This document shows, piece by piece, positions 5,279 to 38,093 of a stretch of DNA of 64,000 nucleotides. Origin of the DNA: Candidatus Yanofskybacteria bacterium RIFCSPLOWO2_01_FULL_42_49. GTDB lineage: Bacteria > Patescibacteriota > Minisyncoccia > 2-02-FULL-40-12 > GWA2-44-9. The notes under the pieces are model-generated. The model was not told where the DNA came from, did not search any database, and was given only the letters and a program-made list of their open reading frames with translations. Both the position numbers and the translations under genes were made by a program. Position 1 is the stretch's first letter. Each line of letters starts with the position of its first letter. The stretch covers positions 69,380 to 133,379 of the forward strand of contig MGKI01000014.1 in the NCBI GenBank assembly GCA_001795615.1. Direction: 5' to 3'.

Positions 5279-6664
5279 ATGCTCAAGAATGTGAACCCAA
5301 ATATATTACAAATAACCAATGCCTTTATGTATACCGAATACCCCCACAAGAGTTTTTGGTCAACTGATATGGGAAGTGAAGATTGTCATTCGGCGCTACT
5401 TGAATTATTAACCGATGAGCCCAATGTCCCTCTTTTGCTCTATGTCCATATATTGTACTGCACAAAACTTTGCTGGTTCTGTAATTGTCACATAGGAGAG
5501 ATCACCCAAAGCCAAGACAAGAGAAAAGATTATCTTGAGCTTCTTTATTCAGAAATACGATTGTTTAAGAAACTTTTTGACAAACACTCTTTGGCTCCGA
5601 ATTTTACAGAAATACATCTAGGAGGCGGATCTCCTACGGATCTTAGCATGAATGACTTTAGCCGACTGGTAGAAAATTTGAGTTCAATCGTAGATATCAA
5701 AAACTTGAGTGAATTTTCTATTGAAATAGATCCAAGACACAGCAGCAGAGAAATGCTTAGATTTTACCATAACCAAGGAATAAACCGAATTTCCTTTGGA
5801 ATTCAGGACTTTGACCCTGGTGTCCAAAAAGCCATTAACAGAATCCAGCCGATAGAGCTTGTAGAAAAACTTATGGGGCCGGAAATTAGTGATCTTTTCC
5901 CCAATGGTATAAATTTTGACATTATTTGCGGCCTGCCTCATCAAACAACCGAAACAATCAAGAGAACGATGGATGAATGTGTCCGTCTTTCGCCGGATAG
6001 GATTTGCTTCAATTATCTCCACCAGGCTCCCGAATTTTCAAAACATCAGCGACTTATGTCTGACGGTAAATTTGGAAGACCAGATCATCTTCCGGATTAT
6101 TATGAGAGGAAAAAACTCTTCACTATAGCCATGGAAACATTGATTAAAGCCGGCTATATCCGCACCGGATATGACCATTTTGCCAAACCAACTGATGCCG
6201 TGGCCAAGGCGATGGCAGAAGGTAAAATGCAATGGAATGCATTGGGAGTTACTGCGGGAAGATACACCAGTATTATTGGCGTGGGAATCCAGAGTTTTAG
6301 CACAATCGGCAATTATTATTTTCAGAATTTTTATGACTTGAAAAAATACCGGGAATCTTTGAGACAAGGACAATTTCCGATTTTCCGCGGCCATCGGCAA
6401 AACCAAGATGATCTTATCAGAAGAGATGTTATTCAAACTTTAAGAAGTTTCTTTTCTATAGATTTCAGATGTATTGACGAAAAATACGCTATTAATTTTG
6501 AGGAATATTTCGATCCAGAACTTGTGGCATTAGATGATTATGTAAGGGACGGCCTGATAGAAATAAAAGACAGGTCGATTATTATTACTGAGAAAGGGCA
6601 TCAATTCGCTAATACTGTCTGTTATGTATTTGATAAATATAAAAAAAATCGGCCCAAATTTTAA
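5279..6664 (+). CDS. HemN-like radical SAM enzyme (coproporphyrinogen III oxidase-like / class C radical SAM family)
   Basis: CTKLCWFCNC gives the HemN-type CxxxCxxCxC cluster, and HLGGGSPT matches the HemN GGGTP-like motif. Length is 461 aa and a terminator follows. Confidence 0.8.
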   Translation: MLKNVNPNILQITNAFMYTEYPHKSFWSTDMGSEDCHSALLELLTDEPNVPLLLYVHILYCTKLCWFCNCHIGEITQSQDKRKDYLELLYSEIRLFKKLFDKHSLAPNFTEIHLGGGSPTDLSMNDFSRLVENLSSIVDIKNLSEFSIEIDPRHSSREMLRFYHNQGINRISFGIQDFDPGVQKAINRIQPIELVEKLMGPEISDLFPNGINFDIICGLPHQTTETIKRTMDECVRLSPDRICFNYLHQAPEFSKHQRLMSDGKFGRPDHLPDYYERKKLFTIAMETLIKAGYIRTGYDHFAKPTDAVAKAMAEGKMQWNALGVTAGRYTSIIGVGIQSFSTIGNYYFQNFYDLKKYRESLRQGQFPIFRGHRQNQDDLIRRDVIQTLRSFFSIDFRCIDEKYAINFEEYFDPELVALDDYVRDGLIEIKDRSIIITEKGHQFANTVCYVFDKYKKNRPKF

Positions 6665-22830: not shown

Positions 22831-24027
22831 ATGAATATTATCCAAATCAACACAATAGATAAAAAGGGTGGGGCAGCAATGGTTGCTTATTCTTTACAAC
22901 AAGAACTGGGAAAAAGGGGCCACACAATATCGATGTTTGTCGGGAGAAAGTATTCTGAGGAGAGTAATATTAAATTGCTTAACGACATGCGTTCTATCTC
23001 AGGTAAAGTCCGACGGAAACTTGCTTACTGGCTAGCTAATGACATCGATGTTTTTTCTTCTGACCACATTTTAAAAACTCCGGAATTTAAAAATGCCGAT
23101 ATCGTTCATTGCCACAATCTGCATAGCAACTACTTCAATCTGGGAACCTTGGAAAAAATGTCTCGCCTTAAGCCGGTTGTTTGGACATTCCATGATATGT
23201 GGCCGATTACCGCCCATTGTGGCCACGCTTTTAACGGTAAAATCAACAAGAATGGTTTTTTTACTTGTCCGGCCTTAAATATACCACCGGCTATCGCCTG
23301 GCACAACGAAAAATACCTAGAGAATAAAAAAACAAAAATATACAAAAACTCAAACTTTCACATTGTCACTCCCTCAAAATGGTTGGCGGAAAAAGTGGGT
23401 CAAAGTATTTTAAAAAATAAACCAATATCAATTATTTATAACGGCATTAACACAAACGCATTCAGCCCCTTACCCAAAGAGCAATGCCGCAAAGAACTAA
23501 ACCTGCCCTTGAACAAGAAGATTATTTTATCTGTTATTAAAAAACAAGATGACCAATGGAAAGGATGGGCGTTCGTAGTTGAAACTGCTGAACAATTCAA
23601 AAACAACAAAGATATTGTTTTTATAAACATCGGCAGAATCACCAGCAATAAGAACAATTTATTAGGACTTCCACCCATTAGCGAAGAAGGAGTGTTGAAA
23701 AAATACTATTCCGCCACCGATATTCTTCTCTATCCTTCAATAGCCGACAACTGTCCCTTGGTAGTCTTAGAAGCGATGGCTTGCGGTTTACCGATTGTCT
23801 CATTTAACACCGGCGGCATACCGGAGTTGATAGAACATAAAGCAAACGGATATATAGCCAAACATAAAGACACTGACGATCTCAAAAACGGTATAGAGTA
23901 TTTACTAAACTTGTCTAATCAAGAGTCAGAACAAATGAGACAACATTCAATAAAAAAAATAAAAAATGGATTTACGACGGAGAAAACGACTAACGAATAT
24001 ATTGAGCTTTACAATCACATCTTATAG
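22831..24027 (+). CDS. GT4-family (GT-B) glycosyltransferase
   Basis: C-terminal EAMACGLPIVSFNTGGIPELIE, with an E-x7-E-like donor-binding region. Confidence 0.8.
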   Translation: MNIIQINTIDKKGGAAMVAYSLQQELGKRGHTISMFVGRKYSEESNIKLLNDMRSISGKVRRKLAYWLANDIDVFSSDHILKTPEFKNADIVHCHNLHSNYFNLGTLEKMSRLKPVVWTFHDMWPITAHCGHAFNGKINKNGFFTCPALNIPPAIAWHNEKYLENKKTKIYKNSNFHIVTPSKWLAEKVGQSILKNKPISIIYNGINTNAFSPLPKEQCRKELNLPLNKKIILSVIKKQDDQWKGWAFVVETAEQFKNNKDIVFINIGRITSNKNNLLGLPPISEEGVLKKYYSATDILLYPSIADNCPLVVLEAMACGLPIVSFNTGGIPELIEHKANGYIAKHKDTDDLKNGIEYLLNLSNQESEQMRQHSIKKIKNGFTTEKTTNEYIELYNHIL

Positions 24028-25521: not shown

Positions 25522-25524
25522 AGT

Positions 25525-27096: not shown

Positions 27097-27102
27097 CCTT
27101 AT

Positions 27103-28500
27103 TTATAACCCCTGGATCTTCCTCATAAGATAGAGCACTCTGTTGGAGTCTTCGATCTGATGCACCTTTTCGATTTTAAAATATAGGCTGAATGTTTTTT
27201 CAAACGATTCTTTGTCGTAATTAAAAAATACATCTTTTCGCGTAGAAAGCAATCTCTGAACCTGGGAATCTTCTTTCGACACAAATTCAATAATAAGCGA
27301 GTTGCCTATCCGGCTGAAGAATTCGGCGATAATCGAAAACGGCAAATTATTTGAAATGGCTAAATGGTGAACTAGCGCCAACGCAAAAACAACATCTGCC
27401 GGACCTCTTTCAACCAAAGACATTCTTTCTTTTAGTGCCCAGCCAATGGCAGGCGAGGGATTAAACAAGTCCGCGATAAGAGGCAAAATATTTTTTTCTT
27501 TGTTTTTTCGTAATCCAATATAATTCTGTTCAACTGCCGCAGGATCAATGTCAAATGCTATAGTAAAAATGTTATTGTCGGAAGCGAGACGACTAAACAG
27601 GCCATTATTAGCCCCAAGATCCCAAACCGAATTTGGTTCAATAATCTTCAAAAATTCAGATATCGTCCTTTTCTTATCTTCAAACCCTCTAACGGAGTAA
27701 TTAGTCTTGTCGTAGTAATCAGCCCATTCCGTATTTTTCGCTTCCCATTTAAACCCTTTAATGGCACGCTCCAAGTTATCAATTAGCACCAACAATCTCT
27801 GACGGCTTAAATAAACCTTTTTATCCTTCAGGGTCTTGTTTGAAAAATATTTCTGGGTTTTAGCGTGAAGATGAATGTGAGATAAAATGGAAAGAATAAA
27901 ACGGGTTTTTAGCGGCAATAATGAACTTGCCAAATCCAGAGGAACGCCGTCTATATAAATCCTGAACAGCTGGCTCAGTCGGACATCTCGATAACTCATA
28001 AGGGCAAGCGGGGCAAGAAAGTGCTGGCAGAATTGCTTATAAGCAACCCAGGGCTCTCCTTCCTTATACTTTTCAAAAGAAAGCGTATCAATTAAAATCG
28101 GCTTGCTGTCTTTAAACTGGATATTATAAGCACTGGCATCTTTCAAGGACATACCGAATTCAAGCGCCTTTTTCTGAATTTTAAGAGTTAGCAGGGCCGC
28201 GTCTTTTAACTGACTAAAGCACCACTCGTAGGGATAAGAAATAAAGGGTACTAATTCTGGTTTTATTATTTTATATCCCCCTTTAGACATCGGGACTCCC
28301 TCAGCAATCTCTTCGTGGCCTATTATAAAATCATCATTTAAAAGAGCCCCATAGAGGCCAGAGGATAAAAAATAATCAAAATTATCTTTGTGGGAAAGAT
28401 TAATTTGACGCAAAAGTGTTCTTTCGCTATAAAAAATGAATCCGCTTGGATCCCTAAAAGAGCTAGACAATTTGTCATTGTTAGCTTTATCGTTCTCCAT
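27103..28500 (-). CDS. Protein with C-terminal class I SAM-methyltransferase domain and uncharacterised N-terminal domain
   Basis: The C-terminal half contains VWDLGANNGLFSRLA...IAFDIDPAAV (motif I / post-I). The N-terminal ~250 aa (FRDPSGFIF...) match no family recognisable by eye. Confidence 0.5.
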   Translation of the reverse strand: MENDKANNDKLSSSFRDPSGFIFYSERTLLRQINLSHKDNFDYFLSSGLYGALLNDDFIIGHEEIAEGVPMSKGGYKIIKPELVPFISYPYEWCFSQLKDAALLTLKIQKKALEFGMSLKDASAYNIQFKDSKPILIDTLSFEKYKEGEPWVAYKQFCQHFLAPLALMSYRDVRLSQLFRIYIDGVPLDLASSLLPLKTRFILSILSHIHLHAKTQKYFSNKTLKDKKVYLSRQRLLVLIDNLERAIKGFKWEAKNTEWADYYDKTNYSVRGFEDKKRTISEFLKIIEPNSVWDLGANNGLFSRLASDNNIFTIAFDIDPAAVEQNYIGLRKNKEKNILPLIADLFNPSPAIGWALKERMSLVERGPADVVFALALVHHLAISNNLPFSIIAEFFSRIGNSLIIEFVSKEDSQVQRLLSTRKDVFFNYDKESFEKTFSLYFKIEKVHQIEDSNRVLYLMRKIQGL

Positions 28501-28696
28501 CTTTATTTCGTTTAAAAAACTTGTTCTGAAAATGCTGGATTTTACTTTTAAATTTAGTCCAGTAAATTTTTGTTGAAAATAAAAATCCGGCCATAGTAGC
28601 TATTATTATTTGAATAATAAAACTGCCGGTACCCGGATCAAGATAGGCATGAGTATTAAAGGGAATGATAAGCAACACAATAACTATAATTATCAT
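28487..28696 (-). CDS. Small hydrophobic protein (possible membrane peptide)
   Basis: 69 aa with two predicted hydrophobic segments. It overlaps the start of the downstream gene by 14 bp and a TATAAT sits ~15 nt upstream on the - strand. It could be spurious. Confidence 0.3.
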   Translation of the reverse strand: MIIIVIVLLIIPFNTHAYLDPGTGSFIIQIIIATMAGFLFSTKIYWTKFKSKIQHFQNKFFKRNKDGER

Positions 28697-28758: not shown

Positions 28759-28790
28759 AAAAAAAATAAAAACCCTCTAATCTGAGGGTT
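28759..28790 (-). terminator. Rho-independent terminator of the radical SAM gene 28789-30369
   Basis: On the - strand, AACCCTCAGATTAGAGGGTT is followed by TTTATTTTTTTT. It overlaps the stop codon. Confidence 0.65.
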
Positions 28791-30369
28791 ACATATTCCG
28801 CTGTTTGGGCACCATTGAGCGAATAATATCAATCCTTTCCGGCTTATTTAAATACTCCCAAACTTTTCTGGAAACAAATTCCAGATAATTAGGGTCGACC
28901 CGTGTTTGAATGGATGGGTGCAACCAGTCCAAATCCGCTATATCAATTCCCGGCAGAAGTAAATTATTTTGAATAACATAGTCGTAGAGAACTGTGCCCG
29001 GAAAAGGAGTTACTATGGTAAAATTAACATATTCAGAACCGGCATCCATATGTTTTTTGGCAACCAAGATCGTCATTAGTAATTCTTCATAGGTCTCATC
29101 CGGATAACCAATGAGATAGCAACTGGAGACCAGAATGCCCAACGAATTTGCTTTTTTTATTAAAGCAGATATGTCATAGGTTTCATGGCTAATTTTACCG
29201 GCAGCCCACTTATCTATAATCCTTTGGGAACCGGACTCGACGGGGAATGAAAGCCGATTAAATCCGGCCTCGGCCATTGTTTCCAGCATCTCATCATCTA
29301 TTACTATCCGGCCAGTGCCGTCATTTTTGTGCAGATGTGATAAATTTACTCCATTAACATCGCCCAGCTTGAATCCAAATTTTATAAACATCTTAAAAAT
29401 GGCCAATGCTCTTTTTTTCTTGGCTAAAAGAGAATCGTCTTCAATATAAATATATTTAGCACCAAGCTCTTTAATGGCTAACGCTTCTCTTTCAACACGC
29501 TCGACTGATTGATATCGGAATTTTCCAATATTACCCATGGGCGAACCTTCTATCTCTGTGGAAATATGACAAAAACTGCAATCATAAGGACAACCCCTGG
29601 ATGTCGTTAATGATACATATGGTTGCGGCTTGTTTAGTTGGCCAACCCTGAGAACACTGCCGTGAGGACGATTTATTTCTGCAATACGATCCATGGGTAG
29701 TAAGTCTCTGGCTGGAATTGGTAGCCTATCTAAATCGTTATCAATTAGCCCCATTGGGTTGATTTTAATTCTACCATTACGCATAAAAGCAACGCCTGAT
29801 ATGTTTGAGAAATCGTGGCTTCCCCGGCGAAGAACATTACCAACTTCAACAATCGTTCTTTCCGCTTCTGAAAGACAAATGAGGTTAGCGCCGGCATCAA
29901 AAAATCTCTTCATCTGTGTCCTGGCATTTATGCCGCCCATCATAATAAATTTATCAGGATAGGCTTCCGAAATTGATCTAACCGTTTCTTCAACCATATA
30001 TGTCTGGGGGGTGAAGATAGAGCTTATGCCGATAACATCAAATTCTCGAGCTTCTTTGAGAATCATTTCTGGCGCAAGACCAACCCTCACCTTGCCAGCA
30101 GAAAGAGGAGTAACACGGTTAAAAGCTTCCTCCATCGTGTGGTGTTTACTGCCAATACAACAATCGAGAATATCTACCTCAAAACTATTTTCACGCAAGG
30201 CGGCAGCCAGATAGAGATTACCCAAAGATACTTCCGGTTTAACCGCACCATATTTTGGATCATGGCGTTGAGGCGAATACATCAGAAGAAATTTGGGGTC
30301 TTTGATATTTTTTATCAATGGCGGTGATTCTTGCTTTTTTTGTATCTTAATACCCGTCTGTATTTCCAT
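28789..30369 (-). CDS. B12-binding domain radical SAM protein (class B radical SAM family)
   Basis: The N-terminal Rossmann-like B12-binding region LLMYSPQ...LGNLYLAAAL...ILDCCIGS is followed by CPYDCSFC (CxxxCxxC). Length is 526 aa. Confidence 0.8.
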   Translation of the reverse strand: MEIQTGIKIQKKQESPPLIKNIKDPKFLLMYSPQRHDPKYGAVKPEVSLGNLYLAAALRENSFEVDILDCCIGSKHHTMEEAFNRVTPLSAGKVRVGLAPEMILKEAREFDVIGISSIFTPQTYMVEETVRSISEAYPDKFIMMGGINARTQMKRFFDAGANLICLSEAERTIVEVGNVLRRGSHDFSNISGVAFMRNGRIKINPMGLIDNDLDRLPIPARDLLPMDRIAEINRPHGSVLRVGQLNKPQPYVSLTTSRGCPYDCSFCHISTEIEGSPMGNIGKFRYQSVERVEREALAIKELGAKYIYIEDDSLLAKKKRALAIFKMFIKFGFKLGDVNGVNLSHLHKNDGTGRIVIDDEMLETMAEAGFNRLSFPVESGSQRIIDKWAAGKISHETYDISALIKKANSLGILVSSCYLIGYPDETYEELLMTILVAKKHMDAGSEYVNFTIVTPFPGTVLYDYVIQNNLLLPGIDIADLDWLHPSIQTRVDPNYLEFVSRKVWEYLNKPERIDIIRSMVPKQRNM

Positions 30370-30440
30370 TTTTAAAGAACCCTCTTAAAAATAAGTACTT
30401 GGGTCAAAAATAGCAAAAAGAGCTCTAAATAACAATCCAC

Positions 30441-30465
30441 ATAAAAAGCCCTGATTATAGGGCTT
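30441..30465 (-). terminator. Rho-independent terminator of the radical SAM gene 30485-32614
   Basis: On the - strand, AAGCCCTATAATCAGGGCTT is followed by TTTATGTGG. Confidence 0.6.
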
Positions 30466-30484
30466 GTACGGCCGCCTGTTTAAA

Positions 30485-32614
30485 TTAGTGATGGCCGGCA
30501 ATTTCTATATAAGGATTTTTACTGCCATACAGATATGCTCCGCGGCGGTTACAATACCAAACCATTTTTTGGCACCACTCTTCCCATGAATCCCATCTTT
30601 CGGTCGTACGGTCTATGCAGTAGCTATAATTTCCGGGTTTATAATCAGCAGTTCCGCCAAGTAATACGGTACGATAAACATCCCAAATATTGTAATTCAG
30701 TTCAAGATTTAAATCTTCATTTTTAAAAGGTAACTTAATAAGAGATCGGTTCAACTTCAGTGAGTCAAGGAGAACGTCAACCGGTTTATCGGAAGTCATA
30801 AACTGCATCATTACCATTTCCGCTTCCCGATAAAAAGCTTCCAGCTTATTTTCAGCGCAAAGTTTGATAAGTATATATTCTTCCGGCGGCCAATAAATGT
30901 TGAGCCATTCCTCAGAATGAAAATATTCTCCGGAACATCCCGCCTGTATGTCACGGGCCAAGTTAGCAAAAAATCTGTAAATCTCGGATAAAATGGGTAA
31001 CTCCCCGGAACAACTTGAATTTTTTACAAATGCTTCGAGCGCCTGACCATATGACACACCATAATATTCGTGCAGAGTCATGATGGGTATTTGTAAAAGC
31101 TTGTTAAAGTAGATGAGGCTGGTCATCCAGCAAAATACCCAAGCCTTGATCCATTCTTCTTTGGGCATAGTGTTGGTGGCTACAACCAGTTCCTGATATT
31201 CTTCCACGCCGCTGATAGAATCGTTGCGTTTGCCGTGATGACTGATCATTTTTGTACGAACTATCTCATATCCATAACGTTCCTGATATTCCGGATTACC
31301 CATCTCCGTATTGCGTAGAATGGTGAGAAAGTTGAGTTGGATATGATTATGCTGACCATTAGTGATGAGTGTAGAGGTTCCGTCAACAATGCTTTGATAT
31401 GTTTCTTCAGGCATCGGGAGAATAATATCAGTCATAGTATAAACACCTTCTGCGGCCAGCTGTTTCTGCATTACATAATATTCATCGAGTTTCATATTAT
31501 CCCTGCGCACCGCCTTAAGTGTCGCTGGGTTTAAAGACTGTTGAGACATAACTGTAACCCTGTTTAAACCGGCCTTGGCAAGAATTTTAAGAGCTTCAAT
31601 GGTATGCTTTTTGGGATTCTTGGAATTTTGAGTAGAGACTGCTTCCAGATAACCATACTTCGCCCTTGTTTCGGCGAAATATTCGGCGATCTGAATGTCC
31701 CGCTCAAGAATTCCAAAATTGGCATTACACAGAAATATATACGGAATCCTGTGTTCACCGACCCACATGATATCGCCGTAAATTTGTTCTAGTAAAAACC
31801 TGCTAACCCTGTCTTCGGTGGCTCCTCCCCAATCGCAATATGTACATTGAAAGGGGCAGCCCCGATCAGTTTCATACATCAGAACCCATTTTTGATCAGG
31901 AAAAACAGTCATGAGTTTGTCAAAGACACCGGTTGTAAACGGCGACGGAGCCTGGGCTAGCTCTTTGTCATTCATTCTTTCAACCTTAGGATTGAAATGA
32001 AAAATACCATTAGCGTCAACATAGCTGGCCGAGGGAATTAGACTTTTATCGTGGCAACTATCGATAGCCATCTGTTCAAGAATATATTTGAACACTCTTT
32101 CGCCTTCTCCGTGTACACAAATATCAATTTCCGGATTTAAATGGTGGAAATCCTCAGTGAAATTCATCCGCTTGCGCAGACTTTCCTTGGAACTCAAATC
32201 GACAGTTCTAACTCTTCTGAACTGTTTTTTGCTGTCAGGCACTTGCGGGCCGCCAAAAACAATAACAACCTCCGGTTTTCTCCTCTTTAGCTCCCGGGCA
32301 ATATCTAGAGAGTTCTCAAAATTCCACATGTATATACTGAAACCAACAATATCTGCATCACTGAGAAATTCAGCAGCCTCTTGAATGCGCATGAATGTAT
32401 AAATAGGCGCAAAAAATTCATAATCATCAGAGTGAGTCAAATGCTTTTGGGCATAAGCCTGGAGCATTCCCACCGAAAGAGGCAAATAGCACTGGCCGGA
32501 GAAACTGTTATTGATCTGGACAAAACCTATTTTTATTTTCTTATCAGGTTTTTTTGATTTAAACTCTAGTAAATTATCGTTTATAGTCCTAAGCGAAATT
32601 ATTCCCAAACTCAT
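30485..32614 (-). CDS. B12-binding domain radical SAM protein with long C-terminal extension
   Basis: The N-terminal B12-like region IKIGFVQINNSFSGQCYLPLSVGML is followed by GCPFQCTYC (CxxxCxxC). The protein is 709 aa, with ~300 aa of uncharacterised C-terminal region. Confidence 0.8.
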   Translation of the reverse strand: MSLGIISLRTINDNLLEFKSKKPDKKIKIGFVQINNSFSGQCYLPLSVGMLQAYAQKHLTHSDDYEFFAPIYTFMRIQEAAEFLSDADIVGFSIYMWNFENSLDIARELKRRKPEVVIVFGGPQVPDSKKQFRRVRTVDLSSKESLRKRMNFTEDFHHLNPEIDICVHGEGERVFKYILEQMAIDSCHDKSLIPSASYVDANGIFHFNPKVERMNDKELAQAPSPFTTGVFDKLMTVFPDQKWVLMYETDRGCPFQCTYCDWGGATEDRVSRFLLEQIYGDIMWVGEHRIPYIFLCNANFGILERDIQIAEYFAETRAKYGYLEAVSTQNSKNPKKHTIEALKILAKAGLNRVTVMSQQSLNPATLKAVRRDNMKLDEYYVMQKQLAAEGVYTMTDIILPMPEETYQSIVDGTSTLITNGQHNHIQLNFLTILRNTEMGNPEYQERYGYEIVRTKMISHHGKRNDSISGVEEYQELVVATNTMPKEEWIKAWVFCWMTSLIYFNKLLQIPIMTLHEYYGVSYGQALEAFVKNSSCSGELPILSEIYRFFANLARDIQAGCSGEYFHSEEWLNIYWPPEEYILIKLCAENKLEAFYREAEMVMMQFMTSDKPVDVLLDSLKLNRSLIKLPFKNEDLNLELNYNIWDVYRTVLLGGTADYKPGNYSYCIDRTTERWDSWEEWCQKMVWYCNRRGAYLYGSKNPYIEIAGHH

Positions 32615-32691
32615 ACTGTCATATTTACCTTTTAAGTTTTTAATGTTCTTACTGTTAGTTATAAACTAATAATTTATTTCTTACAATAAAA

Positions 32692-33741
32692 CTATAGTTG
32701 CTTCACCCTGTCTAGTAAATTTTTGGCTAAAATATGAGATTTCAAATAACTTTGATATAGCCTATAACCATTTTCAGCCACCCTTTCAGAGATTGAATAA
32801 TTATTCTTAACCCATAAGATCTTATTGGCTAAAGATCTGAAATCAGCCGGCTTACAAGTAATACAAGTTTCTCCATCCTTTAAAAGCTCGAGAATGCCAG
32901 TATTTGCAGCTGTCAGATATGGCAACTTCATAGCCAACGATTCGTAGGCCTTATGGGGAATAGTCCGCTGAAGACGTTCGTGGTCAGATAATTGGCCTAA
33001 ACTCACATGGCATTTCCCCATTAATATTCTTAGTTCTTCGGTCGGTAAAAAATCAAAAAAATATTCAATGTTATTTGGCCTTAATTCTTCGATCAAAACT
33101 TTTAGCTTACCGACCAGCTGACCGCCTACATGCATGATAAATCTTACGTCTTCTCCTTTAAGTAGTTCGGCTGCTCGAACCACATATTCTGCGCCGGTTT
33201 CAGGCTGTAACGCTCCCCGGAACAAAACTGTGAATTTATCAGGCTTATTTATGATTGGATCATAAAAAAACTTATCTTCATCAACGCCAATCCAACTTCT
33301 AAAAATTTTATTTTTAGAAACCTTAAATAACTTTTTAAAATACTCGGCTTGATTATATGACTCCACAACAGTTAAATTTGCAAAATGTACAGCCGCAAAA
33401 TCAAGCAGCCAATAATAAATAGCTTTCTTCGAAAAAGGGGAAGCTAACTCTCTGGAAACTATTAAACCTTCATATAATGAGCGAAATGCAACATAAATTA
33501 TTTTTTTATTGCAAAATGGGCGCATAAAAATTACCAGCAATGGACTGTCAAAGCCAATAAAAACATAATCTGTATCTGATTTATTTTTTCTAAAAAAACT
33601 TAGGGCCTCAAGATACCCGCGAACACCCCCGGATGCAACTCTGAACGACTCGACCCTGACACCATTCTCCTTCAATCCTTTTATATAAACGACATTTAAA
33701 GACGAGCCAACTCTAGTTCTGCTTATATATAATATTTTCAT
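32692..33741 (-). CDS. GT-B fold glycosyltransferase (GT4-like)
   Basis: The C-terminal block ...HKAYESLAMKLPYLTAANTGILELLKDGETCI is a GT4-type donor-binding region. It overlaps the upstream gene by 4 bp. Confidence 0.6.
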   Translation of the reverse strand: MKILYISRTRVGSSLNVVYIKGLKENGVRVESFRVASGGVRGYLEALSFFRKNKSDTDYVFIGFDSPLLVIFMRPFCNKKIIYVAFRSLYEGLIVSRELASPFSKKAIYYWLLDFAAVHFANLTVVESYNQAEYFKKLFKVSKNKIFRSWIGVDEDKFFYDPIINKPDKFTVLFRGALQPETGAEYVVRAAELLKGEDVRFIMHVGGQLVGKLKVLIEELRPNNIEYFFDFLPTEELRILMGKCHVSLGQLSDHERLQRTIPHKAYESLAMKLPYLTAANTGILELLKDGETCITCKPADFRSLANKILWVKNNYSISERVAENGYRLYQSYLKSHILAKNLLDRVKQL

Positions 33742-34514
33742 CTATTTTGTTTTAACAAACTCAACTCTTTCTGCCAATTATAATCCCCCCAATGTCTATA
33801 TCTCATCTTAATGTCCTCGTTTCTGTGGCCCGGATGACAACCAAGTTCAACAATTTTATCTGAATGTTCTTCGGCTAATTTTTTAGCTTTATCTATGTCT
33901 TTTTTGCCTAATTTACCGGCATTCACAAAACCGACAAAGTAATCGTTGCACTGCAGACCAGCCCTGCGTATCTTGTTCTTCGCCGCCGTTGACAAGAAAT
34001 TTAAAAATAACAGTTGAAGTTTTCTAAACAACTTGCCACCAGACAAATTAAACGGTTCATTAACAACTCTTATATACGGGATATTATACTCTATGGCCAA
34101 TTTTATGCATATATTCATGATCCCCGGCAACAAGTGCAAATGTTGATTGCCGTTTATAAAAGTTGGCTTTATTCCGGCCTGAATAACTTTTTTAATCTGC
34201 GCCTCAAGCTCTTGCCGAATATGATCTTTTTTAACCAGCCCTAAAATATATTTTAGAAAAAAAACACGATGATTTTTATACATTAACCCCCCAGAAACGA
34301 TCGACCTTTGTTCAACTAGATTTAAATGGGCTCCGATATTCTCAAGTCTCGCATCTAGAATTTGTTGGACGGCATCGTCAAACGCTTCCCCGTTAGCCAT
34401 TAAAGATGCCCCGCTGATTTTATTTTCTTTCAATAAAAAAATTATTCCGTCGTTAACGGACTCGTGGAGACCAAGGTCGTCAGCAATAATTTTTAAATTA
34501 GGGGGTTCGATCAT
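33738..34514 (-). CDS. YdjC/ChbG/HpnK-family carbohydrate deacetylase (NaxD-like candidate)
   Basis: N-terminal IIADDLGLHESVNDGI (ADDxG), and later LHLLP and CHPG blocks. Length is 258 aa and it overlaps the GT2 gene upstream. Confidence 0.7.
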   Translation of the reverse strand: MIEPPNLKIIADDLGLHESVNDGIIFLLKENKISGASLMANGEAFDDAVQQILDARLENIGAHLNLVEQRSIVSGGLMYKNHRVFFLKYILGLVKKDHIRQELEAQIKKVIQAGIKPTFINGNQHLHLLPGIMNICIKLAIEYNIPYIRVVNEPFNLSGGKLFRKLQLLFLNFLSTAAKNKIRRAGLQCNDYFVGFVNAGKLGKKDIDKAKKLAEEHSDKIVELGCHPGHRNEDIKMRYRHWGDYNWQKELSLLKQNR

Positions 34515-35484
34515 TCTCTAGATTTTTAGTTTCAGAAACTATATATACCGGGCGGCCTTTTATTTCGTTGAACATTTTATATAAGTACTCACCCATAATA
34601 CCAATGACCATAAGTTGAATACTGCCCAACGCCAGAACAACAATCGTTAAAGAAGAAAGACCCTCAATAAGATGTTCCGGATACAAGTATTTTTCTATAA
34701 CAACGGATAAGCCATAACCGATGCTCCCCAGAAAGATTACCAAACCTATCCAAAAAGAGATTCGGAGAGGAAAGGCGGAAAATGAGGTTACTCCGTTCAA
34801 AATAAAACTAAATAACCTTTTAACGGAGATTGGCTGGCCATATTTGCGGGCCCTTACTGCGTAAGGAACGTATTTTTTCTTAAAACCGACCCATTGAGCC
34901 AATCCTCTGAAAAATTTCTCTCTCTCGGGTAATTTTTTAATCACATCAACAACCCGTCTTTTATACAAAACAAAATCGCTGGCGTTTTTAAATTCAAGTC
35001 CTGTCATAGTGCTTAAAAATTTATAGATAGCCCTGCCCGCGACTTCCCTGAAAAAAGAATTTTGTTCATTGGTTATCCTCTCTCCGATAACAATATCGTG
35101 TCCTGCTTCGGCTTGTTTTATGAATTCTGAAATTACTTGTGGTGGATGCTGTAAATCGCTATCCATAGTTACCACCATTTCTCCGCTTGAAGCATCTATT
35201 CCGGCGCTTAAAGCCGCTTGATGCCTGAAATTCCTTGAAAAACGGATGATCTTGACCCTTGGGTCCTTGTCTGCGTATTCGTTCAAGATTTCCGAGGTTC
35301 TATCGCGAGAACAGTCGTCAACAAAAATTATCTCATAACTTTTACCGATAGAATCGCAAACAGAGTAAAGCTCCTTCATCAATTCCGGAAGGGACTTTTC
35401 TTCATTGAAAATAGGCAAAACTACCGATAAATAGATGGCCTTTGGTTGACTAATCATTTGTATAATTATACATAGCCAACCCAA
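34498..35484 (-). CDS. Polyprenyl-phosphate glycosyltransferase (GT2; ArnC/GtrB/FlmF2/DPM1-like) with C-terminal TM helices
   Basis: LSVVLPIFNEE, FVDDCSRDRT and MDSDLQHPP (DxD / QxxRW-region equivalents), plus two C-terminal hydrophobic helices. Confidence 0.8.
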   Translation of the reverse strand: MGWLCIIIQMISQPKAIYLSVVLPIFNEEKSLPELMKELYSVCDSIGKSYEIIFVDDCSRDRTSEILNEYADKDPRVKIIRFSRNFRHQAALSAGIDASSGEMVVTMDSDLQHPPQVISEFIKQAEAGHDIVIGERITNEQNSFFREVAGRAIYKFLSTMTGLEFKNASDFVLYKRRVVDVIKKLPEREKFFRGLAQWVGFKKKYVPYAVRARKYGQPISVKRLFSFILNGVTSFSAFPLRISFWIGLVIFLGSIGYGLSVVIEKYLYPEHLIEGLSSLTIVVLALGSIQLMVIGIMGEYLYKMFNEIKGRPVYIVSETKNLENDRTP

Positions 35485-35494
35485 GATTGTCTAG

Positions 35495-37192
35495 TCAGTT
35501 TATAGTCAGAGAACGGCAGTCAAAGATGTATGAATCTATATATTTATCAGTGAATTTTTTGTTCAGTTCGCATCTGGATATTAATTTCCAATACAAGCTG
35601 TTTTTGTCAATAGCCGGAAAATCAACTATCATATAGTACCCCCTGTGATAAGTGAGTCTTTGGCTGTAATCACGAGAAGGAGCTGTGTAAAATCTTCCTG
35701 TGTACTTATCTGCTATTTTTAAATAATAGACTCCCGCGTCATAATATGTAACAACATCGTTAATCTCTTCATCATTGACCACGCGCTCAACAGACGCTTT
35801 AGTAATATTGTTTACGCTACCATAAAAAGCGCCCATTAAATTTTCACTTGAAAGCAGGAGATTATAACCAACACCGAAAACAACAAAAAAGGCAATCGCT
35901 AATTTTTTCTTATTAAACAAAAGCCACAGAAAACCCACAGCCCATATCCACAAAACAAACTGCGCTGAAACATAAAATCCTATCGGCCCCGAACCTCCTG
36001 TCATAGGAATAAGAAAGTTAAAGTCCAGATCTTTGACTTTTTGCACATAGGCCTCCTTTGGGTTAAGGGGCACAATGTCGTGAGCGATAAAAAGAGTAAA
36101 GGCCAAAAGAACCGCAAAACCTAATATACTTAATAAAAGTCGTTTCTTGTCCAACCCTGAAAGCAATGAATAAATGACATGGCCGCTTATAATAACCGCC
36201 GGCGCTATTATGAACATAAAGTATCTCTCTATCGGAAGCCGGGCAAAGTCAAAAATTACAAGATAGAAAATAAAATTGAATAAAGTATAGATATACCAAA
36301 TACGATATTTTATGAAAAAATCTTTTTTTCCGCCGACGGAGACCCGGCTATGCACGGGTCCCTCTCCAGGCAAAGCGGATCCGCCTCCAGCAGAGAATAA
36401 TCCATACACCATCGGCAAAAATAAAAGCGGAGAGAACCAGATAAAAAACTTAACTAGGCGGAGAAGCAACTCAAAATAAGCTCTTGATGCAAAATCAAAT
36501 ATCTTAAAGTTGGTAGAATACTCTACAAATCTCGGATCGGTCTTTCCGTAAAATAAATAGAGCCCGGCAATAAAAACTCCTGAAATACCCAGGATCAGAC
36601 CCGCTCTTTTTATCTCCTGTGTAAATTTGCCCTTATCATACAAAGTCCACAGATACTCGATTGCCAACGCTCCGACAAAAATCACAAAACTCAACTTCGT
36701 TAACAAACCGGCAATTATCACCACGGCCAGCGGCAGAATAAATTTTTTATCGCCGTCCTTAACTGTTCTGATGTAAAAATAGTATGTTAAAAGAACAAAA
36801 AACGGCAAAACGGCGCCGTCAATGTCTATCATCAGGTTGGCGATAAGACCATAAACACTGATAACATAAAGACCCGATGAAAGATAAGCGATCTTTCTGT
36901 TATCGGTGATCTTTAGAGAAACCGCATAAATAAGAAGAAGATTTAAAATACCAAAAACAAAAGGTACTACCCTCAAGTTATCATAGCCAAACATCTTGCC
37001 GACCAGCGAAAGAGTACTCTGCATTATCGGCGGATGGGGAGAGTCAACTTCGCCGAATTCTGCCGTATATACTTGAGAAACCCACCTGTATTCATCCTGA
37101 TGATATAACTGGTCCAAGCCCAAAAATCTAGTGGCGATAAACAACAAAACCAACAGCCAAAGCCAGTAATTATTTTTTAGTATTACTGTCAT
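35495..37192 (-). CDS. GT-C fold polytopic membrane glycosyltransferase (ArnT/PMT/FlmK-like)
   Basis: 565 aa with more than 10 predicted TM helices. An acidic DE motif sits in the first extracytoplasmic loop (LYHQDEYRW), as in the GT39/GT83 families. Confidence 0.55.
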   Translation of the reverse strand: MTVILKNNYWLWLLVLLFIATRFLGLDQLYHQDEYRWVSQVYTAEFGEVDSPHPPIMQSTLSLVGKMFGYDNLRVVPFVFGILNLLLIYAVSLKITDNRKIAYLSSGLYVISVYGLIANLMIDIDGAVLPFFVLLTYYFYIRTVKDGDKKFILPLAVVIIAGLLTKLSFVIFVGALAIEYLWTLYDKGKFTQEIKRAGLILGISGVFIAGLYLFYGKTDPRFVEYSTNFKIFDFASRAYFELLLRLVKFFIWFSPLLFLPMVYGLFSAGGGSALPGEGPVHSRVSVGGKKDFFIKYRIWYIYTLFNFIFYLVIFDFARLPIERYFMFIIAPAVIISGHVIYSLLSGLDKKRLLLSILGFAVLLAFTLFIAHDIVPLNPKEAYVQKVKDLDFNFLIPMTGGSGPIGFYVSAQFVLWIWAVGFLWLLFNKKKLAIAFFVVFGVGYNLLLSSENLMGAFYGSVNNITKASVERVVNDEEINDVVTYYDAGVYYLKIADKYTGRFYTAPSRDYSQRLTYHRGYYMIVDFPAIDKNSLYWKLISRCELNKKFTDKYIDSYIFDCRSLTIN

Positions 37193-38093
37193 TTTTTTGG
37201 AGAATCAATTCTAACTCATCTTTAAGATTAGGCATTTTAAGGCCAAGTTTAGCGGCTTTATCAATATTAAACCACATCTCCTTGGGCCGAGCAGCAAAAT
37301 TTCCAGGCATATTATCAACAGAGATTATCTTGGCTTCACCAGAAAAATTAGGAAATTTACTAATAACCACCTGCCCTATTTCAGCTTTGGACAATCGATC
37401 CCTGCTTCCGATATGAAGAATCCCTTTTGACAGAACTTCTGGGACTTTTAACAACAGTCCTGCGAGAGTTTTAGCGCTTATCGCGTTAATATATACATCG
37501 CTAAAAAGGTTGAACGACCTATTGTTGCTAACTGAATCCACAAGCCACTCTATAAAATTAGCTTGGGGTCGGCCAATACTGTGAATACCAATGGGTACGA
37601 CCCTGACCACTATTCCTTGATTGTAAGCTAAAACAGCTTCTTCTCCCAACAACTTGGTCCATGAGTAAAAATTTTTAGGATCCGGCGTGTCGCTTTCTTT
37701 ATAGTTCCCTTTCACTCCAGAAAAAACGGAACCAGTTGATATGTATATTAATTTCGCCCCCTGCTTCTTTGCCAATTCGGTAATATTTCTCGTCCCCACA
37801 ACATTGACTCGCCAACAATCCTCTCTGTTTTTCTCGCACTTATCAATATTTGTCATTGATGCACAATGAAATATCGTATTGATTTTACCTATTTTCTTAT
37901 CTAAAAAATTAACGGCTTTGGCGACACCAATGTCGCATTTTAAGTTTACATAATCCTTATCAGTTAAATTTGGATTCTCGTTATAAGTACCGATCACACC
38001 ATAACCGCTTTTCTTGGCGCAACGAGTCAACTCCAAACCCAAAAGACCGCTTGCTCCGGTTACTAAAATTTTATTTTTTGTTGATCTTTTCAT
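37170..38093 (-). CDS. RmlD-like NAD(P)-dependent sugar-nucleotide reductase (dTDP-4-dehydrorhamnose reductase family), paralog 1
   Basis: KILVTGASGLLG Rossmann motif, length ~300 aa, and a conserved C-terminal block shared with 43949-44845. Confidence 0.6.
   Translation of the reverse strand: MKRSTKNKILVTGASGLLGLELTRCAKKSGYGVIGTYNENPNLTDKDYVNLKCDIGVAKAVNFLDKKIGKINTIFHCASMTNIDKCEKNREDCWRVNVVGTRNITELAKKQGAKLIYISTGSVFSGVKGNYKESDTPDPKNFYSWTKLLGEEAVLAYNQGIVVRVVPIGIHSIGRPQANFIEWLVDSVSNNRSFNLFSDVYINAISAKTLAGLLLKVPEVLSKGILHIGSRDRLSKAEIGQVVISKFPNFSGEAKIISVDNMPGNFAARPKEMWFNIDKAAKLGLKMPNLKDELELILQKNDSNTKK

What the first reader, a model, noticed from the sequence alone, without database searches (positions are those of the whole stretch)
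28789..32614. Two adjacent B12-binding radical SAM enzymes make three radical SAM proteins in one glycan supercluster
Both ORFs have an N-terminal cobalamin-binding Rossmann-like region followed by CxxxCxxC (CPYDCSFC and CPFQCTYC). Class B radical SAM enzymes typically methylate unactivated carbons, as GenK and Fom3 do on sugars and phosphonates. This locus also carries a HemN-like radical SAM protein, a TylC3-like C-methyltransferase and four conventional SAM methyltransferases. The glycan made here is therefore predicted to be unusually heavily C- and O-methylated or otherwise radically tailored. Each B12-rSAM gene has its own terminator, so they are separately transcribed. The 709 aa protein has a ~300 aa uncharacterised C-terminal extension.
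Basis: partly seen in the sequence, partly recalled or inferred. Interest (0 to 1): 0.75.

Follow-up and report, generated by a model that had tools for sequence, protein, structure and literature searches.

The report
Two unrelated B12 radical-SAM sugar enzymes
Two neighbouring genes in the cell-surface sugar locus of a tiny-genome (CPR, Yanofskybacteria) bacterium do encode vitamin-B12-type radical enzymes, but they are unrelated, were brought together by a gene insertion, and one belongs to a widespread unstudied family related to antibiotic-pathway methylases that normally sits in heptose-sugar operons.

Summary
ORFs 28789-30369(-) (526 aa, "rSAM-A") and 30485-32614(-) (709 aa, "rSAM-B") each carry a B12-binding domain, a radical-SAM core and an invariant CxxxCxxC. 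Each is followed by a terminator hairpin that is conserved in relatives. The window is 100% identical to a Candidatus Yanofskybacteria (CPR) genome.

The two genes are not a functional pair. rSAM-B is a full-length homologue of the iterative C-methylases TokK and CysS, so its "C-terminal extension" is their third domain. Its family spans many phyla and normally sits in NDP-heptose synthesis and tailoring operons. A 56%-identical paralogue occupies that position just left of the window. The window copy is a leader-gene-terminator unit inserted between GT4 and rSAM-A.

rSAM-A belongs to an unnamed class-B subfamily. It is the last gene of a conserved GT-C / GT2 (PgfS/ArnC-like) / YdjC (HpnK-like) / GT4 module, and its chemistry is open: C-methylation, or HpnJ-like rearrangement.

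Both genes are under purifying selection (dN/dS about 0.07-0.09). Substrates, products and cobalamin use are inferred only.

The parts
28789..30369 (-). rSAM-A, 526 aa: class-B radical SAM of an unnamed subfamily; last gene of the GT-C/GT2/YdjC/GT4 module
   Evidence: ORF. Pfam B12-binding and Radical_SAM. No NCBIfam cut-off met. AF2 model pLDDT 85.8. Generic class-B fold. dN/dS about 0.09 against L168.
29842..30228 (-). rSAM-A B12-binding Rossmann domain (residues 48-176), with S116-x-I and invariant G145-G146
   Evidence: Pfam PF02310 at 44.7 bits. G145 invariant and G146 >=90% conserved across 110 distant representatives. No conserved His in the loop after strand 1.
29569..29592 (-). rSAM-A [4Fe-4S] motif C260-PYD-C264-SF-C267
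   Evidence: Invariant in A2, A3 and A4.
30370..30419 (-). Conserved rSAM-A leader (TTTTTGCTAT...GAGG..CTTTAAAA-ATG)
   Evidence: The same leader lies upstream of rSAM-A in L167 (rSAM-B present) and in L081 and L168 (rSAM-B absent).
28771..28790 (-). Terminator-like hairpin plus T-run ending the rSAM-A unit
   Evidence: An equivalent hairpin follows rSAM-A in L168.
30485..32614 (-). rSAM-B, 709 aa: TokK/CysS-type three-domain class-B radical SAM, predicted methylcobalamin-dependent C-methylase (lineage B paralogue)
   Evidence: phmmer against TokK E 4.8e-76 and CysS E 1.4e-46. Foldseek against TokK TM 0.78/0.84 over 686 columns. KedN5 family 216 bits, below the 700 cut-off. dN/dS about 0.07 against L167.
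32213..32497 (-). rSAM-B B12-binding domain (residues 40-134), including W97 (codon 32324-32326), the equivalent of TokK Trp76 and CysS Trp75 under the corrin
   Evidence: Pfam. Residue mapping from the alignment and the TokK and CysS papers. W97 present in 79 of 79 family members across phyla.
31829..31858 (-). rSAM-B cluster motif C253-PFQ-C257-TY-C260, then D-W262 (equivalent of TokK Trp215 and CysS Trp206)
   Evidence: Cysteines 79/79 and W262 78/79. Alignment. Papers.
30524..31297 (-). rSAM-B C-terminal domain (about residues 440-697), the TokK/CysS-type substrate-binding third domain
   Evidence: Confidently folded. Included in the full-length superposition on TokK and CysS. Conserved to about residue 700 in homologues from many phyla.
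30446..30465 (-). Terminator-like hairpin plus T-run 20 nt after the rSAM-B stop
   Evidence: A structurally equivalent hairpin with a different stem sequence is in L167.
32615..32691 (-). rSAM-B leader, with a promoter-like TTTACT-17-TATAGT at 32719-32691
   Evidence: 85% identical over 60 nt to L167, although the adjacent GT4 protein is only 64% identical. Promoter-like match.
32692..38093 (-). rSAM-A's conserved module: RmlD-like reductase (37170-38093), PMT_2 GT-C (35495-37192), PgfS/ArnC-like GT2 (34498-35484), HpnK-like YdjC deacetylase (33738-34514), GT4 (32692-33741); the genes overlap or nearly abut
   Evidence: Pfam. NCBIfam. The same order ending in rSAM-A is found in L081, L168, L169 and L171; L167 has GT2-YdjC-GT4-rSAM-B-rSAM-A (its upstream genes have no Pfam hit and the locus starts at the contig end).
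241..2883 (+). Right-hand end of the canonical rSAM-B-type sugar cassette: HAD phosphatase (241-900), aldo-keto reductase (999-1952), and a degraded transketolase (2016-2883)
   Evidence: Pfam. An AKR lies directly next to rSAM-B homologues in 22 loci. TK remnant. The cassette continues left of the window with rSAM-B'.
5279..6664 (+). HemN-type radical SAM; its homologues lie directly upstream of rSAM-B homologues in several phyla
   Evidence: Pfam. NCBIfam hemN 364 bits against a 325 cut-off. Adjacency in L010, L012, L015, L021 and L036.

Best explanation
The two genes are independent class-B radical SAM tailoring enzymes that ended up side by side through a gene insertion.

rSAM-B (709 aa) is a TokK/CysS-type enzyme. 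Mechanism inferred from those solved homologues: one SAM methylates cob(I)alamin held base-off and His-off over Trp97. A second SAM is cleaved at the [4Fe-4S] cluster (C253/C257/C260) to give a 5'-deoxyadenosyl radical. That radical abstracts H from an sp3 carbon of the substrate, which is held between the barrel and the C-terminal domain. The substrate radical then takes the methyl group from methylcobalamin, possibly more than once.

The family's ancestral job is tailoring a nucleotide-activated heptose-derived sugar. The window copy is a diverged paralogue that moved, with its own leader and terminator, into the site between GT4 and rSAM-A.

rSAM-A (526 aa) is the final cytoplasmic tailoring step of a module in which a PgfS/ArnC-like GT2 loads a HexNAc onto polyprenyl phosphate, a YdjC enzyme de-N-acetylates it, a GT4 adds to it, and a GT-C transfers it outside the cell. 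rSAM-A most likely modifies that lipid-linked aminosugar or the GT4 donor by radical chemistry. C-methylation is the single most likely reaction (about 50%).

Shown: domain content, homology, fold, conservation, gene contexts, the insertion, and purifying selection.
Inferred: cofactor use, substrates and reactions.
For: - Class-B identity of both proteins.
- rSAM-B is TokK/CysS-type: sequence E 4.8e-76 and 1.4e-46; full-length fold match TM 0.78/0.84; the clade-specific Trp76 and Trp215 equivalents W97 and W262 are present in 79/79 and 78/79 members across phyla.
In 75 loci the neighbours are SDRs (45), a TK or E1 TPP enzyme (28-32), GHMP kinase (26), short-chain dehydrogenase (25), AKR (23, of which 22 adjacent), DegT (23), nucleotidyltransferase (21) and SIS (9). 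The best solved matches of the SIS, GHMP and NTP representatives are GmhA, heptose-phosphate kinase and the HddC-type 6-deoxy-mannoheptose pathway protein.
- Paralogue rSAM-B' (56% identical) sits in that cassette about 1.3 kb left of the window, in the same genome. Two CPR lineages exist. A 65%-identical lineage-B member sits in the canonical cassette.
- Insertion: GT2-YdjC-GT4-rSAM-A without rSAM-B in L081, L168, L169 and L171; with rSAM-B only in the window and L167. The rSAM-A leader is unchanged either way, and the terminators are conserved. The rSAM-B leader is 85% identical where the flanks are much more diverged.
- Module partners: GT2 matches PgfS at 236 bits and ArnC at 179 bits; YdjC matches HpnK at 95 bits and ChbG at 80 bits.
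- Both genes are constrained: dN/dS 0.07 and 0.09.
Against: - No experiment, product or cofactor measurement exists.
- rSAM-B misses the KedN5 subfamily cut-off (216 against 700).
- rSAM-B replaces the substrate-anchoring TokK Arg280 / CysS Trp271 with Ser327, so the substrate cannot be read off from homologues.
- In this genome the window copy is detached from the heptose genes. No GHMP kinase, SIS or nucleotidyltransferase was seen in the window or in the 10 kb to its left, and the transketolase is degraded.
- rSAM-A's reaction type is undetermined. Its nearest named families are a P-methylase, HpnJ, ApyD and BchE, all at about 60-107 bits. AprD4, a non-Cbl dehydratase, and OxsB match its fold as well as the methylases do.
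- YdjC linkage is absent in rSAM-A orthologues at 52-64% identity, and in L170 at 74%.
- Corrinoid supply in this CPR organism could not be checked.
Confidence: 0.6

Rival explanations
1. One reading: the two B12-rSAM enzymes are a functional pair of C-methylases acting in sequence on the same sugar, producing an unusually heavily C-methylated glycan.
For: The genes are adjacent and co-oriented, here and in L167. Both are class B. The locus is rich in other methyltransferases, including a TylC3-type C-MT and a HemN-type rSAM.
Against: They share 21% identity. Each has its own terminator and leader. rSAM-A orthologues in L081, L168, L169, L170 and L171 lack rSAM-B next door. Apart from the window and L167, sampled rSAM-B relatives lack an rSAM-A orthologue next door; the only hits are paralogues at 21-29% identity.
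Confidence: 0.15
2. rSAM-A is not a methylase. Like HpnJ or calditol synthase it would contract or rearrange the ring of a lipid-linked glucosamine. Alternatively, like AprD4 paired with a reductase, it would deoxygenate it.
For: The GT2, HpnK-like YdjC and B12-rSAM trio mirrors HpnI/HpnK/HpnJ. HpnJ is rSAM-A's second-best NCBIfam hit at 102 bits. AprD4 and OxsB are among its best fold matches. An RmlD-like reductase opens the module.
Against: The HpnJ score is far below its cut-off of 578, and none of the 95 nearest representatives is an HpnJ. There are no hopanoid genes. YdjC linkage is lost in orthologues at 52-64% identity. Most characterised class-B enzymes are methylases (review statement).
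Confidence: 0.25
3. One or both proteins keep the B12-like Rossmann domain but do not use cobalamin, as with AprD4, because a minimal-genome CPR bacterium cannot rely on a corrinoid supply.
For: AprD4 is a precedent within the same fold set. There are no cobalamin transport or salvage genes and no B12 riboswitch in the window.
Against: rSAM-B keeps the Trp that sits under the corrin in TokK and CysS, and the GG motif, in 79 of 79 members. Only 64 kb plus 10 kb of the genome was inspected. One groundwater survey lists cobalamin among the few vitamin pathways not missing in most Patescibacteria MAGs.
Confidence: 0.15
4. The window's rSAM-B is a redundant duplicate of rSAM-B' on its way to being lost.
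For: A paralogue exists 30 kb away. The nearby transketolase is a deletion remnant.
Against: dN/dS is about 0.07 against L167. All catalytic residues are intact. Orthologues at 80-86% identity occur on at least nine other contigs.
Confidence: 0.05

Closest known systems
TokK / ThnK (carbapenem C6 alkylation; PDB 7KDX, 7KDY)
   Same: The same three-domain architecture over the full length (TM 0.78/0.84). The same cluster motif context (RGCP..C..CDWG). Trp under the corrin and the active-site Trp are conserved.
   Different: 24% identity in the structural alignment. The carboxylate anchor Arg280 is Ser327. There are no carbapenem, NRPS or pantetheine-related genes nearby; the context is nucleotide-sugar and glycan genes. 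Iterativity is unknown.
CysS (cystobactamid alkoxy extension; PDB 9N1B-D)
   Same: Homologous through the Cbl-binding and radical-SAM domains by sequence (E 1.4e-46; residues 30-451), with a full-length fold match (TM 0.66/0.74). Trp75 and Trp206 equivalents are conserved, and the Phe238 equivalent F294 is conserved.
   Different: The gate and substrate-contact residue Trp271 is Ser327, and His371 is Asn428. The substrate class and genomic context are different.
KedN5 family (NCBIfam NF033712, methylcobalamin-dependent C-methyltransferases)
   Same: Best NCBIfam hit for rSAM-B (216 bits, E 7e-64).
   Different: The score is far below the 700-bit family cut-off, so it is a sister group at best.
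GenK / GenD1 / Fom3-type class-B methylases acting on sugars or phosphonates
   Same: They set a precedent that class-B rSAMs C-methylate unactivated sugar carbons.
   Different: None appeared among the NCBIfam or PDB hits.
HpnJ with HpnI and HpnK (hopanoid glucosamine to cyclitol ether)
   Same: The gene logic of a GT2, a YdjC-type deacetylase and a B12-rSAM. The window's YdjC protein's best hit is HpnK, and HpnJ is rSAM-A's second-best hit.
   Different: Scores are far below cut-offs (102 against 578; 95 against 233). There are no hopanoid genes. The lipid here would be polyprenyl phosphate, and a GT-C and a GT4 are part of the module.
AprD4 (B12-domain radical SAM diol dehydratase acting on an aminosugar; PDB 6FD2)
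   Same: Among the best fold matches of rSAM-A (TM 0.65/0.75). It acts on a glucosamine-containing substrate together with a reductase.
   Different: 17% identity. NCBIfam AprD4 scores 43 bits against a cut-off of 500.

Membership tests
Class B (B12-binding domain) radical SAM enzymes | N-terminal Rossmann-type B12-binding domain | tested here: met
   PF02310 is above its gathering score in both proteins. The SxL-like and GG elements have the canonical spacing of about 28 residues (rSAM-A S116...G145G146; rSAM-B S93...G121G122), read from the sequences.
Class B (B12-binding domain) radical SAM enzymes | CxxxCxxC cluster motif in a partial TIM-barrel radical SAM core | tested here: met
   PF04055 is above cut-off. 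The cysteines are invariant. The AF2 models match class-B structures.
Class B (B12-binding domain) radical SAM enzymes | Actual cobalamin binding and use | not testable with these tools
   AprD4 shows that the domain can exist without Cbl. For rSAM-B the TokK and CysS corrin-face Trp is conserved. For rSAM-A there is no diagnostic residue.
TokK/ThnK/CysS clade of iterative Cbl-dependent C-methylases (rSAM-B) | Three domains, including the large C-terminal substrate-binding domain | tested here: met
   Foldseek against 7KDX: E 2e-43, 686 aligned columns, TM 0.78/0.84. Against 9N1B: TM 0.66/0.74.
TokK/ThnK/CysS clade of iterative Cbl-dependent C-methylases (rSAM-B) | Trp below the cobalt (TokK W76, CysS W75) and the active-site Trp (W215, W206), stated to be clade-specific | tested here: met
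   W97 and W262, from the alignment and the papers. Present in 79/79 and 78/79 members.
TokK/ThnK/CysS clade of iterative Cbl-dependent C-methylases (rSAM-B) | Pantetheinylated or carrier-linked natural-product substrate and its anchoring residues | tested here: not met
   TokK R280 / CysS W271 is Ser327. The neighbours are sugar-pathway genes, not NRPS, PKS or carbapenem genes.
TokK/ThnK/CysS clade of iterative Cbl-dependent C-methylases (rSAM-B) | Iterative (multiple) methyl transfer | not testable with these tools
   Requires an enzyme assay.
KedN5 family, NCBIfam NF033712 (rSAM-B) | Whole-protein score at or above the curated 700-bit cut-off | tested here: not met
   216 bits.
HpnJ, NCBIfam TIGR03471 (rSAM-A) | Score at or above the 577.6-bit equivalog cut-off | tested here: not met
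   101.9 bits. The best among the 95 nearest representatives is E 1e-77, still below the cut-off.
HpnJ, NCBIfam TIGR03471 (rSAM-A) | Hopanoid biosynthesis gene context (shc, hpnH and others) | tested here: not met
   None among the window ORFs. Only the GT2 and YdjC analogy holds.
Sden_1168 / PhpK P-methyltransferases (rSAM-A) | Score at or above the cut-offs (575 and 600 bits) | tested here: not met
   107 and 63.9 bits. There are no phosphonate genes in the window.
BchE anaerobic Mg-protoporphyrin cyclase (rSAM-A; some source annotations use this name) | Score at or above the 481-bit cut-off, and a bacteriochlorophyll context | tested here: not met
   58.9 bits. The JGI names are over-annotation.
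NDP-heptose (GmhA/HddA/GmhB/HddC-type) pathway as the home context of the rSAM-B family | SIS isomerase, GHMP heptose kinase, HAD phosphatase and nucleotidyltransferase co-located with the gene | tested here: met
   Met for the family: GHMP in 26, NTP-transferase in 21, SIS in 9 and HAD in 4 of 75 loci. The best PDB matches are heptose enzymes. For the window copy itself only HAD is present; GHMP, SIS and NTP-transferase were not found within the window or the 10 kb to its left.

The most novel reading that the evidence does not exclude
rSAM-A is not a methylase. It would be an HpnJ- or calditol-synthase-like rearrangement enzyme, or an AprD4-like deoxygenating one, working on a polyprenyl-phosphate-linked glucosamine. 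That substrate would be made by the adjacent PgfS/ArnC-like GT2 and the HpnK-like YdjC deacetylase. On this reading, CPR bacteria would export, through the module's GT-C, a carbocyclic or otherwise radically rearranged aminosugar onto their surface. That would be a lipid-carrier version of cyclitol chemistry known only from hopanoids and archaeal calditol lipids.
Probability: 0.15. Interest if true: 0.8.

Novelty: new variant of a known kind. Interest (0 to 1): 0.5.

Why it matters
1. A large, cross-phylum family is defined. Its members have TokK/CysS architecture but live in NDP-heptose tailoring operons. That gives enzymologists a concrete substrate class to test for a family known so far only from antibiotic pathways. 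It also raises the possibility of radical, perhaps iterative, carbon addition to primary cell-surface sugars.

2. A bacterium from a lineage with minimal genomes devotes at least five radical SAM genes, four of them B12-type, to a single surface-glycan locus. This implies dependence on externally supplied corrinoid for building its surface, which is relevant to how episymbiotic CPR cells interact with hosts.

3. The result corrects the natural reading that adjacent similar-looking genes act as a pair. Here the adjacency is an insertion.

4. rSAM-A, with its GT-C/GT2/YdjC/GT4 module, is a defined and testable unit of unknown chemistry.

Tried and rejected
- The metagenome-contig scan with the rSAM-A alignment returned mostly distant B12-rSAM paralogues (38% identity or less), because the back-translated motifs were generic. 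It was not usable for orthologue context, so I used ten targeted contig look-ups instead.
I repeated it with 95.
- The afdb50 fold library was unavailable, so I could not test whether annotated HpnJ models are structurally nearer to rSAM-A.
- A fuzzy-regex leader search timed out. I replaced it with blastn-short.
- I considered a cobalamin riboswitch or other structured RNA in the intergenic regions. There are no Rfam hits.
- I considered GAACxTTAAAA as a regulatory motif. It is not enriched in the window (18 matches against 17 expected).
- I considered the 501-aa B12-rSAM next to a lineage-B gene in L173 as evidence for an ancient rSAM-B/rSAM-A pair. It is only 21% identical to rSAM-A and belongs to a different family.
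- I considered the antisense ORFs inside the two genes (29693-29962 and 32088-32384, plus strand). They have no support and lie within strongly constrained coding sequence.
- Literature searches for CPR or Patescibacteria with cobalamin radical SAM, and for class-B rSAMs in polysaccharide or nucleotide-sugar C-methylation, found no prior description.

Full report
**What is there.** Both exceed Pfam's gathering scores for the B12-binding domain and for the Radical_SAM core. The motifs CPYDCSFC (C260/264/267) and CPFQCTYC (C253/257/260) are invariant in family alignments. Both proteins are 100% identical to "hypothetical proteins" A2651_00440 and A2651_00445 of a Candidatus Yanofskybacteria MAG, on contigs up to 188.7 kb. 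The window therefore comes from a CPR/Patescibacteria genome. No tRNA or Rfam family is present.

**Surroundings.** Almost the whole window is glycan biosynthesis:
- a HAD phosphatase, an AKR and a transketolase remnant;
- a HemN-type rSAM (5279-6664);
- DegT, two NeuB-type genes and a CMP-transferase;
- HisH/HisF-like genes, a carbamoyltransferase and a TylC3-type C-methyltransferase (39274-40506);
- many GT4s and GT2s, a GT-C, and Wzy_C/TPR proteins.

Only two conventional SAM methyltransferases are firm (19411-20136 and 46042-46668). 27103-28500 is a weak third.

**rSAM-B is a TokK/CysS-type enzyme.** phmmer against PDB sequences gives TokK at E 4.8e-76 (query residues 41-528) and CysS at 1.4e-46. 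An AlphaFold2 model (pLDDT 85.9) superposes on TokK over about 686 columns (TM 0.78/0.84) and on CysS (TM 0.66/0.74). The "about 300 aa uncharacterised C-terminal extension" is therefore the third domain, which in TokK and CysS forms part of the substrate channel.

TokK's Trp76 (CysS Trp75) lies 3.8 Å under the cobalt. Trp215 (CysS Trp206) lines the active site. The TokK paper describes both as shared by TokK, ThnK and CysS but not by other characterised class-B methylases. In rSAM-B they are W97 and W262, conserved in 79/79 and 78/79 family members from many phyla. The substrate-contact position (TokK Arg280, CysS Trp271) is Ser327, so the substrate differs. The best NCBIfam model is the KedN5 family, but at 216 bits against a 700 cut-off. 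This is a related group, not a member.

**Home context of the rSAM-B family.** The 80 best cover CPR groups, Brocadia and other Planctomycetota, Elusimicrobia, Nitrospirae, Methanoperedens, Thermoplasmatales, Woesearchaeota, Rhodospirillales and Magnetospirillum, Pelagibacteraceae, Sericytochromatia, Flavobacterium and Clostridia. Most align through to about residue 700 (a Sericytochromatia/Flavobacterium subset stops near residue 650).

I searched the window's proteins against these loci, and I clustered the neighbours de novo. rSAM-B homologues do not travel with the window's local neighbours: GT4_32692, YdjC, GT2_34498 and the GT-C appear in 0-2 loci each. They travel instead with the following families:

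| Partner | Loci (of 75) |
|---|---|
| SDR epimerase/dehydratases | 45 |
| Two-subunit transketolase or E1-type TPP enzyme | 28-32 |
| GHMP kinase | 26 |
| Short-chain dehydrogenase | 25 |
| Aldo-keto reductase | 23 (22 directly adjacent) |
| DegT aminotransferase | 23 |
| Nucleotidyltransferase | 21 |
| Second B12-rSAM | 21 |
| SIS isomerase | 9 |
| HAD phosphatase | 4 |

TylF-type O-methyltransferases, RmlC-like epimerases and, in several phyla, a HemN-type rSAM directly upstream also recur. The best solved relatives of the SIS, GHMP and nucleotidyltransferase representatives are phosphoheptose isomerase GmhA (E 1.6e-40), D-glycero-D-manno-heptose phosphate kinase (5e-39) and the HddC-type "6-deoxy-D-mannoheptose pathway protein" (1e-34). 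The family's ancestral setting is therefore an operon that makes and tailors a nucleotide-activated heptose.

**A second copy just outside the window.** I fetched the DNA around the window's first gene. The region is 100% identical over 10,660 bp, so it is the same genome. Immediately left of the window it carries SDR, NUDIX, adh_short, SDR, SDR, PhyH, a 625-aa B12-rSAM, a 709-aa rSAM-B paralogue (rSAM-B', CPYQCTYC, 56% identical), adh_short and a kinase. The window's own HAD, AKR and transketolase remnant follow. The supercluster thus holds at least five radical SAM genes.

CPR genomes carry two paralogue lineages:
- Lineage B is the window's copy. It includes AKR-adjacent members at 58-59% identity and a 65% member inside a canonical cassette (L173).
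- Lineage B' matches L006, L009 and L017 at 72-86%.

Both lineages are equally distant (about 40-46%) from non-CPR homologues.

**rSAM-A and its module.** rSAM-A has only weak sequence matches to solved structures. Its model (pLDDT 85.8) matches TsrM, CysS, MgmA, AprD4, OxsB and TokK about equally (TM 0.57-0.65). Its best NCBIfam hits are all far below their cut-offs: the Sden_1168 P-methyltransferase (107 bits), HpnJ (102), ApyD (82), PhpK (64) and BchE (59).

An exhaustive search of 1.84 billion representatives shows a compact orthologous group. Scores fall from 511 to about 235 bits, then plateau near 150. None of the 95 nearest representatives reaches any equivalog cut-off. rSAM-A is therefore an unnamed class-B subfamily.

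Its gene context is consistent. The order RmlD-like reductase, (methyltransferase), GT-C, GT2, YdjC, GT4, rSAM-A occurs in L081 (72%), L168 (85%), L169 (73%) and L171 (59%), with no rSAM-B. L170 (74%) keeps the GT4-rSAM-A pair. Only L167 (rSAM-A 74%, rSAM-B 86%) shares the window's GT4, rSAM-B, rSAM-A order. More distant orthologues (51-64%) sit next to GT2, GT4, NUDIX, cytidylyltransferase or RmlC-like genes, and one lies in a Bacteroidota-like island.

The GT2 is PgfS/ArnC-like, meaning a polyprenyl-phosphate sugar synthase type. The YdjC protein's best hit is HpnK.

**The adjacency is an insertion.**
- The rSAM-A leader is conserved whether or not rSAM-B lies upstream.
- A GC hairpin with a T-run follows rSAM-B in both the window and L167, with different stem sequences. 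Another follows rSAM-A in the window and L168.
- Between the window and L167, rSAM-B (86% aa, dS about 1.0) and its 60-nt leader (85%) are more similar than the flanking GT4 (64%, dS about 1.6) and rSAM-A (74%, dS saturated). This suggests the leader-gene-terminator unit was exchanged more recently than its surroundings. The dS values are near saturation, so this point is tentative.
- Both genes are under strong purifying selection (dN/dS about 0.07 and 0.09).

**Mechanism (inferred).** For rSAM-B I infer the TokK/CysS ping-pong. SAM methylates cob(I)alamin, which is held base-off and His-off above Trp97. A second SAM is cleaved at the cluster, the 5'-deoxyadenosyl radical abstracts an sp3 hydrogen, and the substrate radical takes the methyl from methylcobalamin (mechanism). 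The substrate is most likely a heptose-derived nucleotide sugar or a close derivative. Whether methylation is iterative is unknown.

For rSAM-A I infer radical tailoring of the lipid-linked aminosugar made by the GT2 and YdjC enzymes, or of the GT4 donor or product, before GT-C-mediated export. C-methylation is the most likely reaction. An HpnJ- or Cds-like ring rearrangement, or an AprD4-like dehydration, remains open.

**Cobalamin.** rSAM-B passes the clade-specific version. rSAM-A cannot be judged. No corrinoid transport or salvage gene and no B12 riboswitch is present in the 74 kb inspected. The rest of the genome could not be read.

**Novelty and score.** I found no description of these families or of B12-rSAMs in CPR glycan loci in the held literature. 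Both proteins are new variants of a known enzyme class. The main additions are:
- the link between a TokK-type family and heptose operons across phyla;
- the definition of the rSAM-A module;
- the demonstration that the two genes are not a pair.

Class-B rSAMs are already known to be numerous and diverse, and no chemistry is demonstrated here, so interest is moderate at 0.5.

Noticed in passing
window 5279-6664 (+): The HemN-type radical SAM scores above NCBIfam's true hemN (coproporphyrinogen III oxidase) equivalog cut-off (364 against 325 bits). Yet it sits in a CPR glycan locus, and its homologues lie directly upstream of rSAM-B homologues in Elusimicrobia, Nitrospirae and Magnetospirillum loci (L010, L012, L015, L021, L036). 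A non-haem, sugar-related role seems likely.
   Followed up: partly
window 2016-2883 (+): The transketolase is a deletion remnant. About 215 residues of the N-terminal subunit are followed, out of frame, by the last 76 residues or so of the C-terminal subunit. Intact two-gene versions occur in related loci.
   Followed up: partly
L172 4365-8451 (same genome, ending about 1.3 kb left of window position 1): Two further B12-rSAM genes lie here: a 625-aa one, and the 709-aa rSAM-B' (56% identical to rSAM-B). They sit with PhyH, SDRs and NUDIX. The supercluster therefore has at least five radical SAM genes, and Yanofskybacteria glycan loci carry at least five distinct class-B families (also 501-503 aa and 646 aa types in L173, L167 and L170).
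   Followed up: partly
window 28487-28696 (-): A 69-aa hydrophobic small ORF (MIIIVIVLLIIPFNTHAYLDPGTGS...) lies in the 288-bp gap downstream of rSAM-A and overlaps the start of 27103-28500. It has no homologue in any locus held, so it may not be a gene.
   Followed up: partly
window 24022-28500 (-): Compared with the syntenic locus L169, three genes form a second insertion immediately downstream of rSAM-A: a sulfatase-like 499-aa protein, a 523-aa membrane protein with no Pfam hit, and a 465-aa protein with a weak methyltransferase-like C-terminus.
   Followed up: no
L076-L080 (Acutalibacteraceae / Clostridia MAGs): These loci carry tandem arrays of three to five rSAM-B-like paralogues (26-29% identical to rSAM-B) in a row. 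That organisation is very different from the single-copy sugar-operon pattern elsewhere.
   Followed up: no
L086 10001-11485: A 51%-identical rSAM-A orthologue lies in what looks like a Bacteroidota genome (Por_Secre_tail and LptF/G nearby). It sits next to a phage-type integrase and many small unknown genes, so it may be on a mobile island.
   Followed up: no
window 32638-32648 (-), 2018-2028 (+); L172 about 6295-6320: The only two exact GAACxTTAAAA matches in the window sit at the starts of rSAM-B and the transketolase remnant. A third precedes rSAM-B'. Upstream regions of lineage-B and B' genes in other loci share a layout of terminator, TTGCCAAA, about 17 nt, a TATAA-like box and GAAC.TTAAAA. 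The motif is not enriched overall (18 against 17 expected).
   Followed up: partly
L050, L051, L053, L054, L066 (Pelagibacteraceae): SAR11 single-cell genomes carry rSAM-B homologues (35-37% identical) with AKR, PhyH, TK/E1, GHMP and SDR genes. The B12-dependent sugar-tailoring cassette is thus present in one of the most abundant and most streamlined marine lineages.
   Followed up: no
(source annotations): Public names for members of both families include "YgiQ (UPF0313) family" and [quoted passage not shown]. Neither is supported: the BchE model scores 59 bits against a cut-off of 481.
   Followed up: yes
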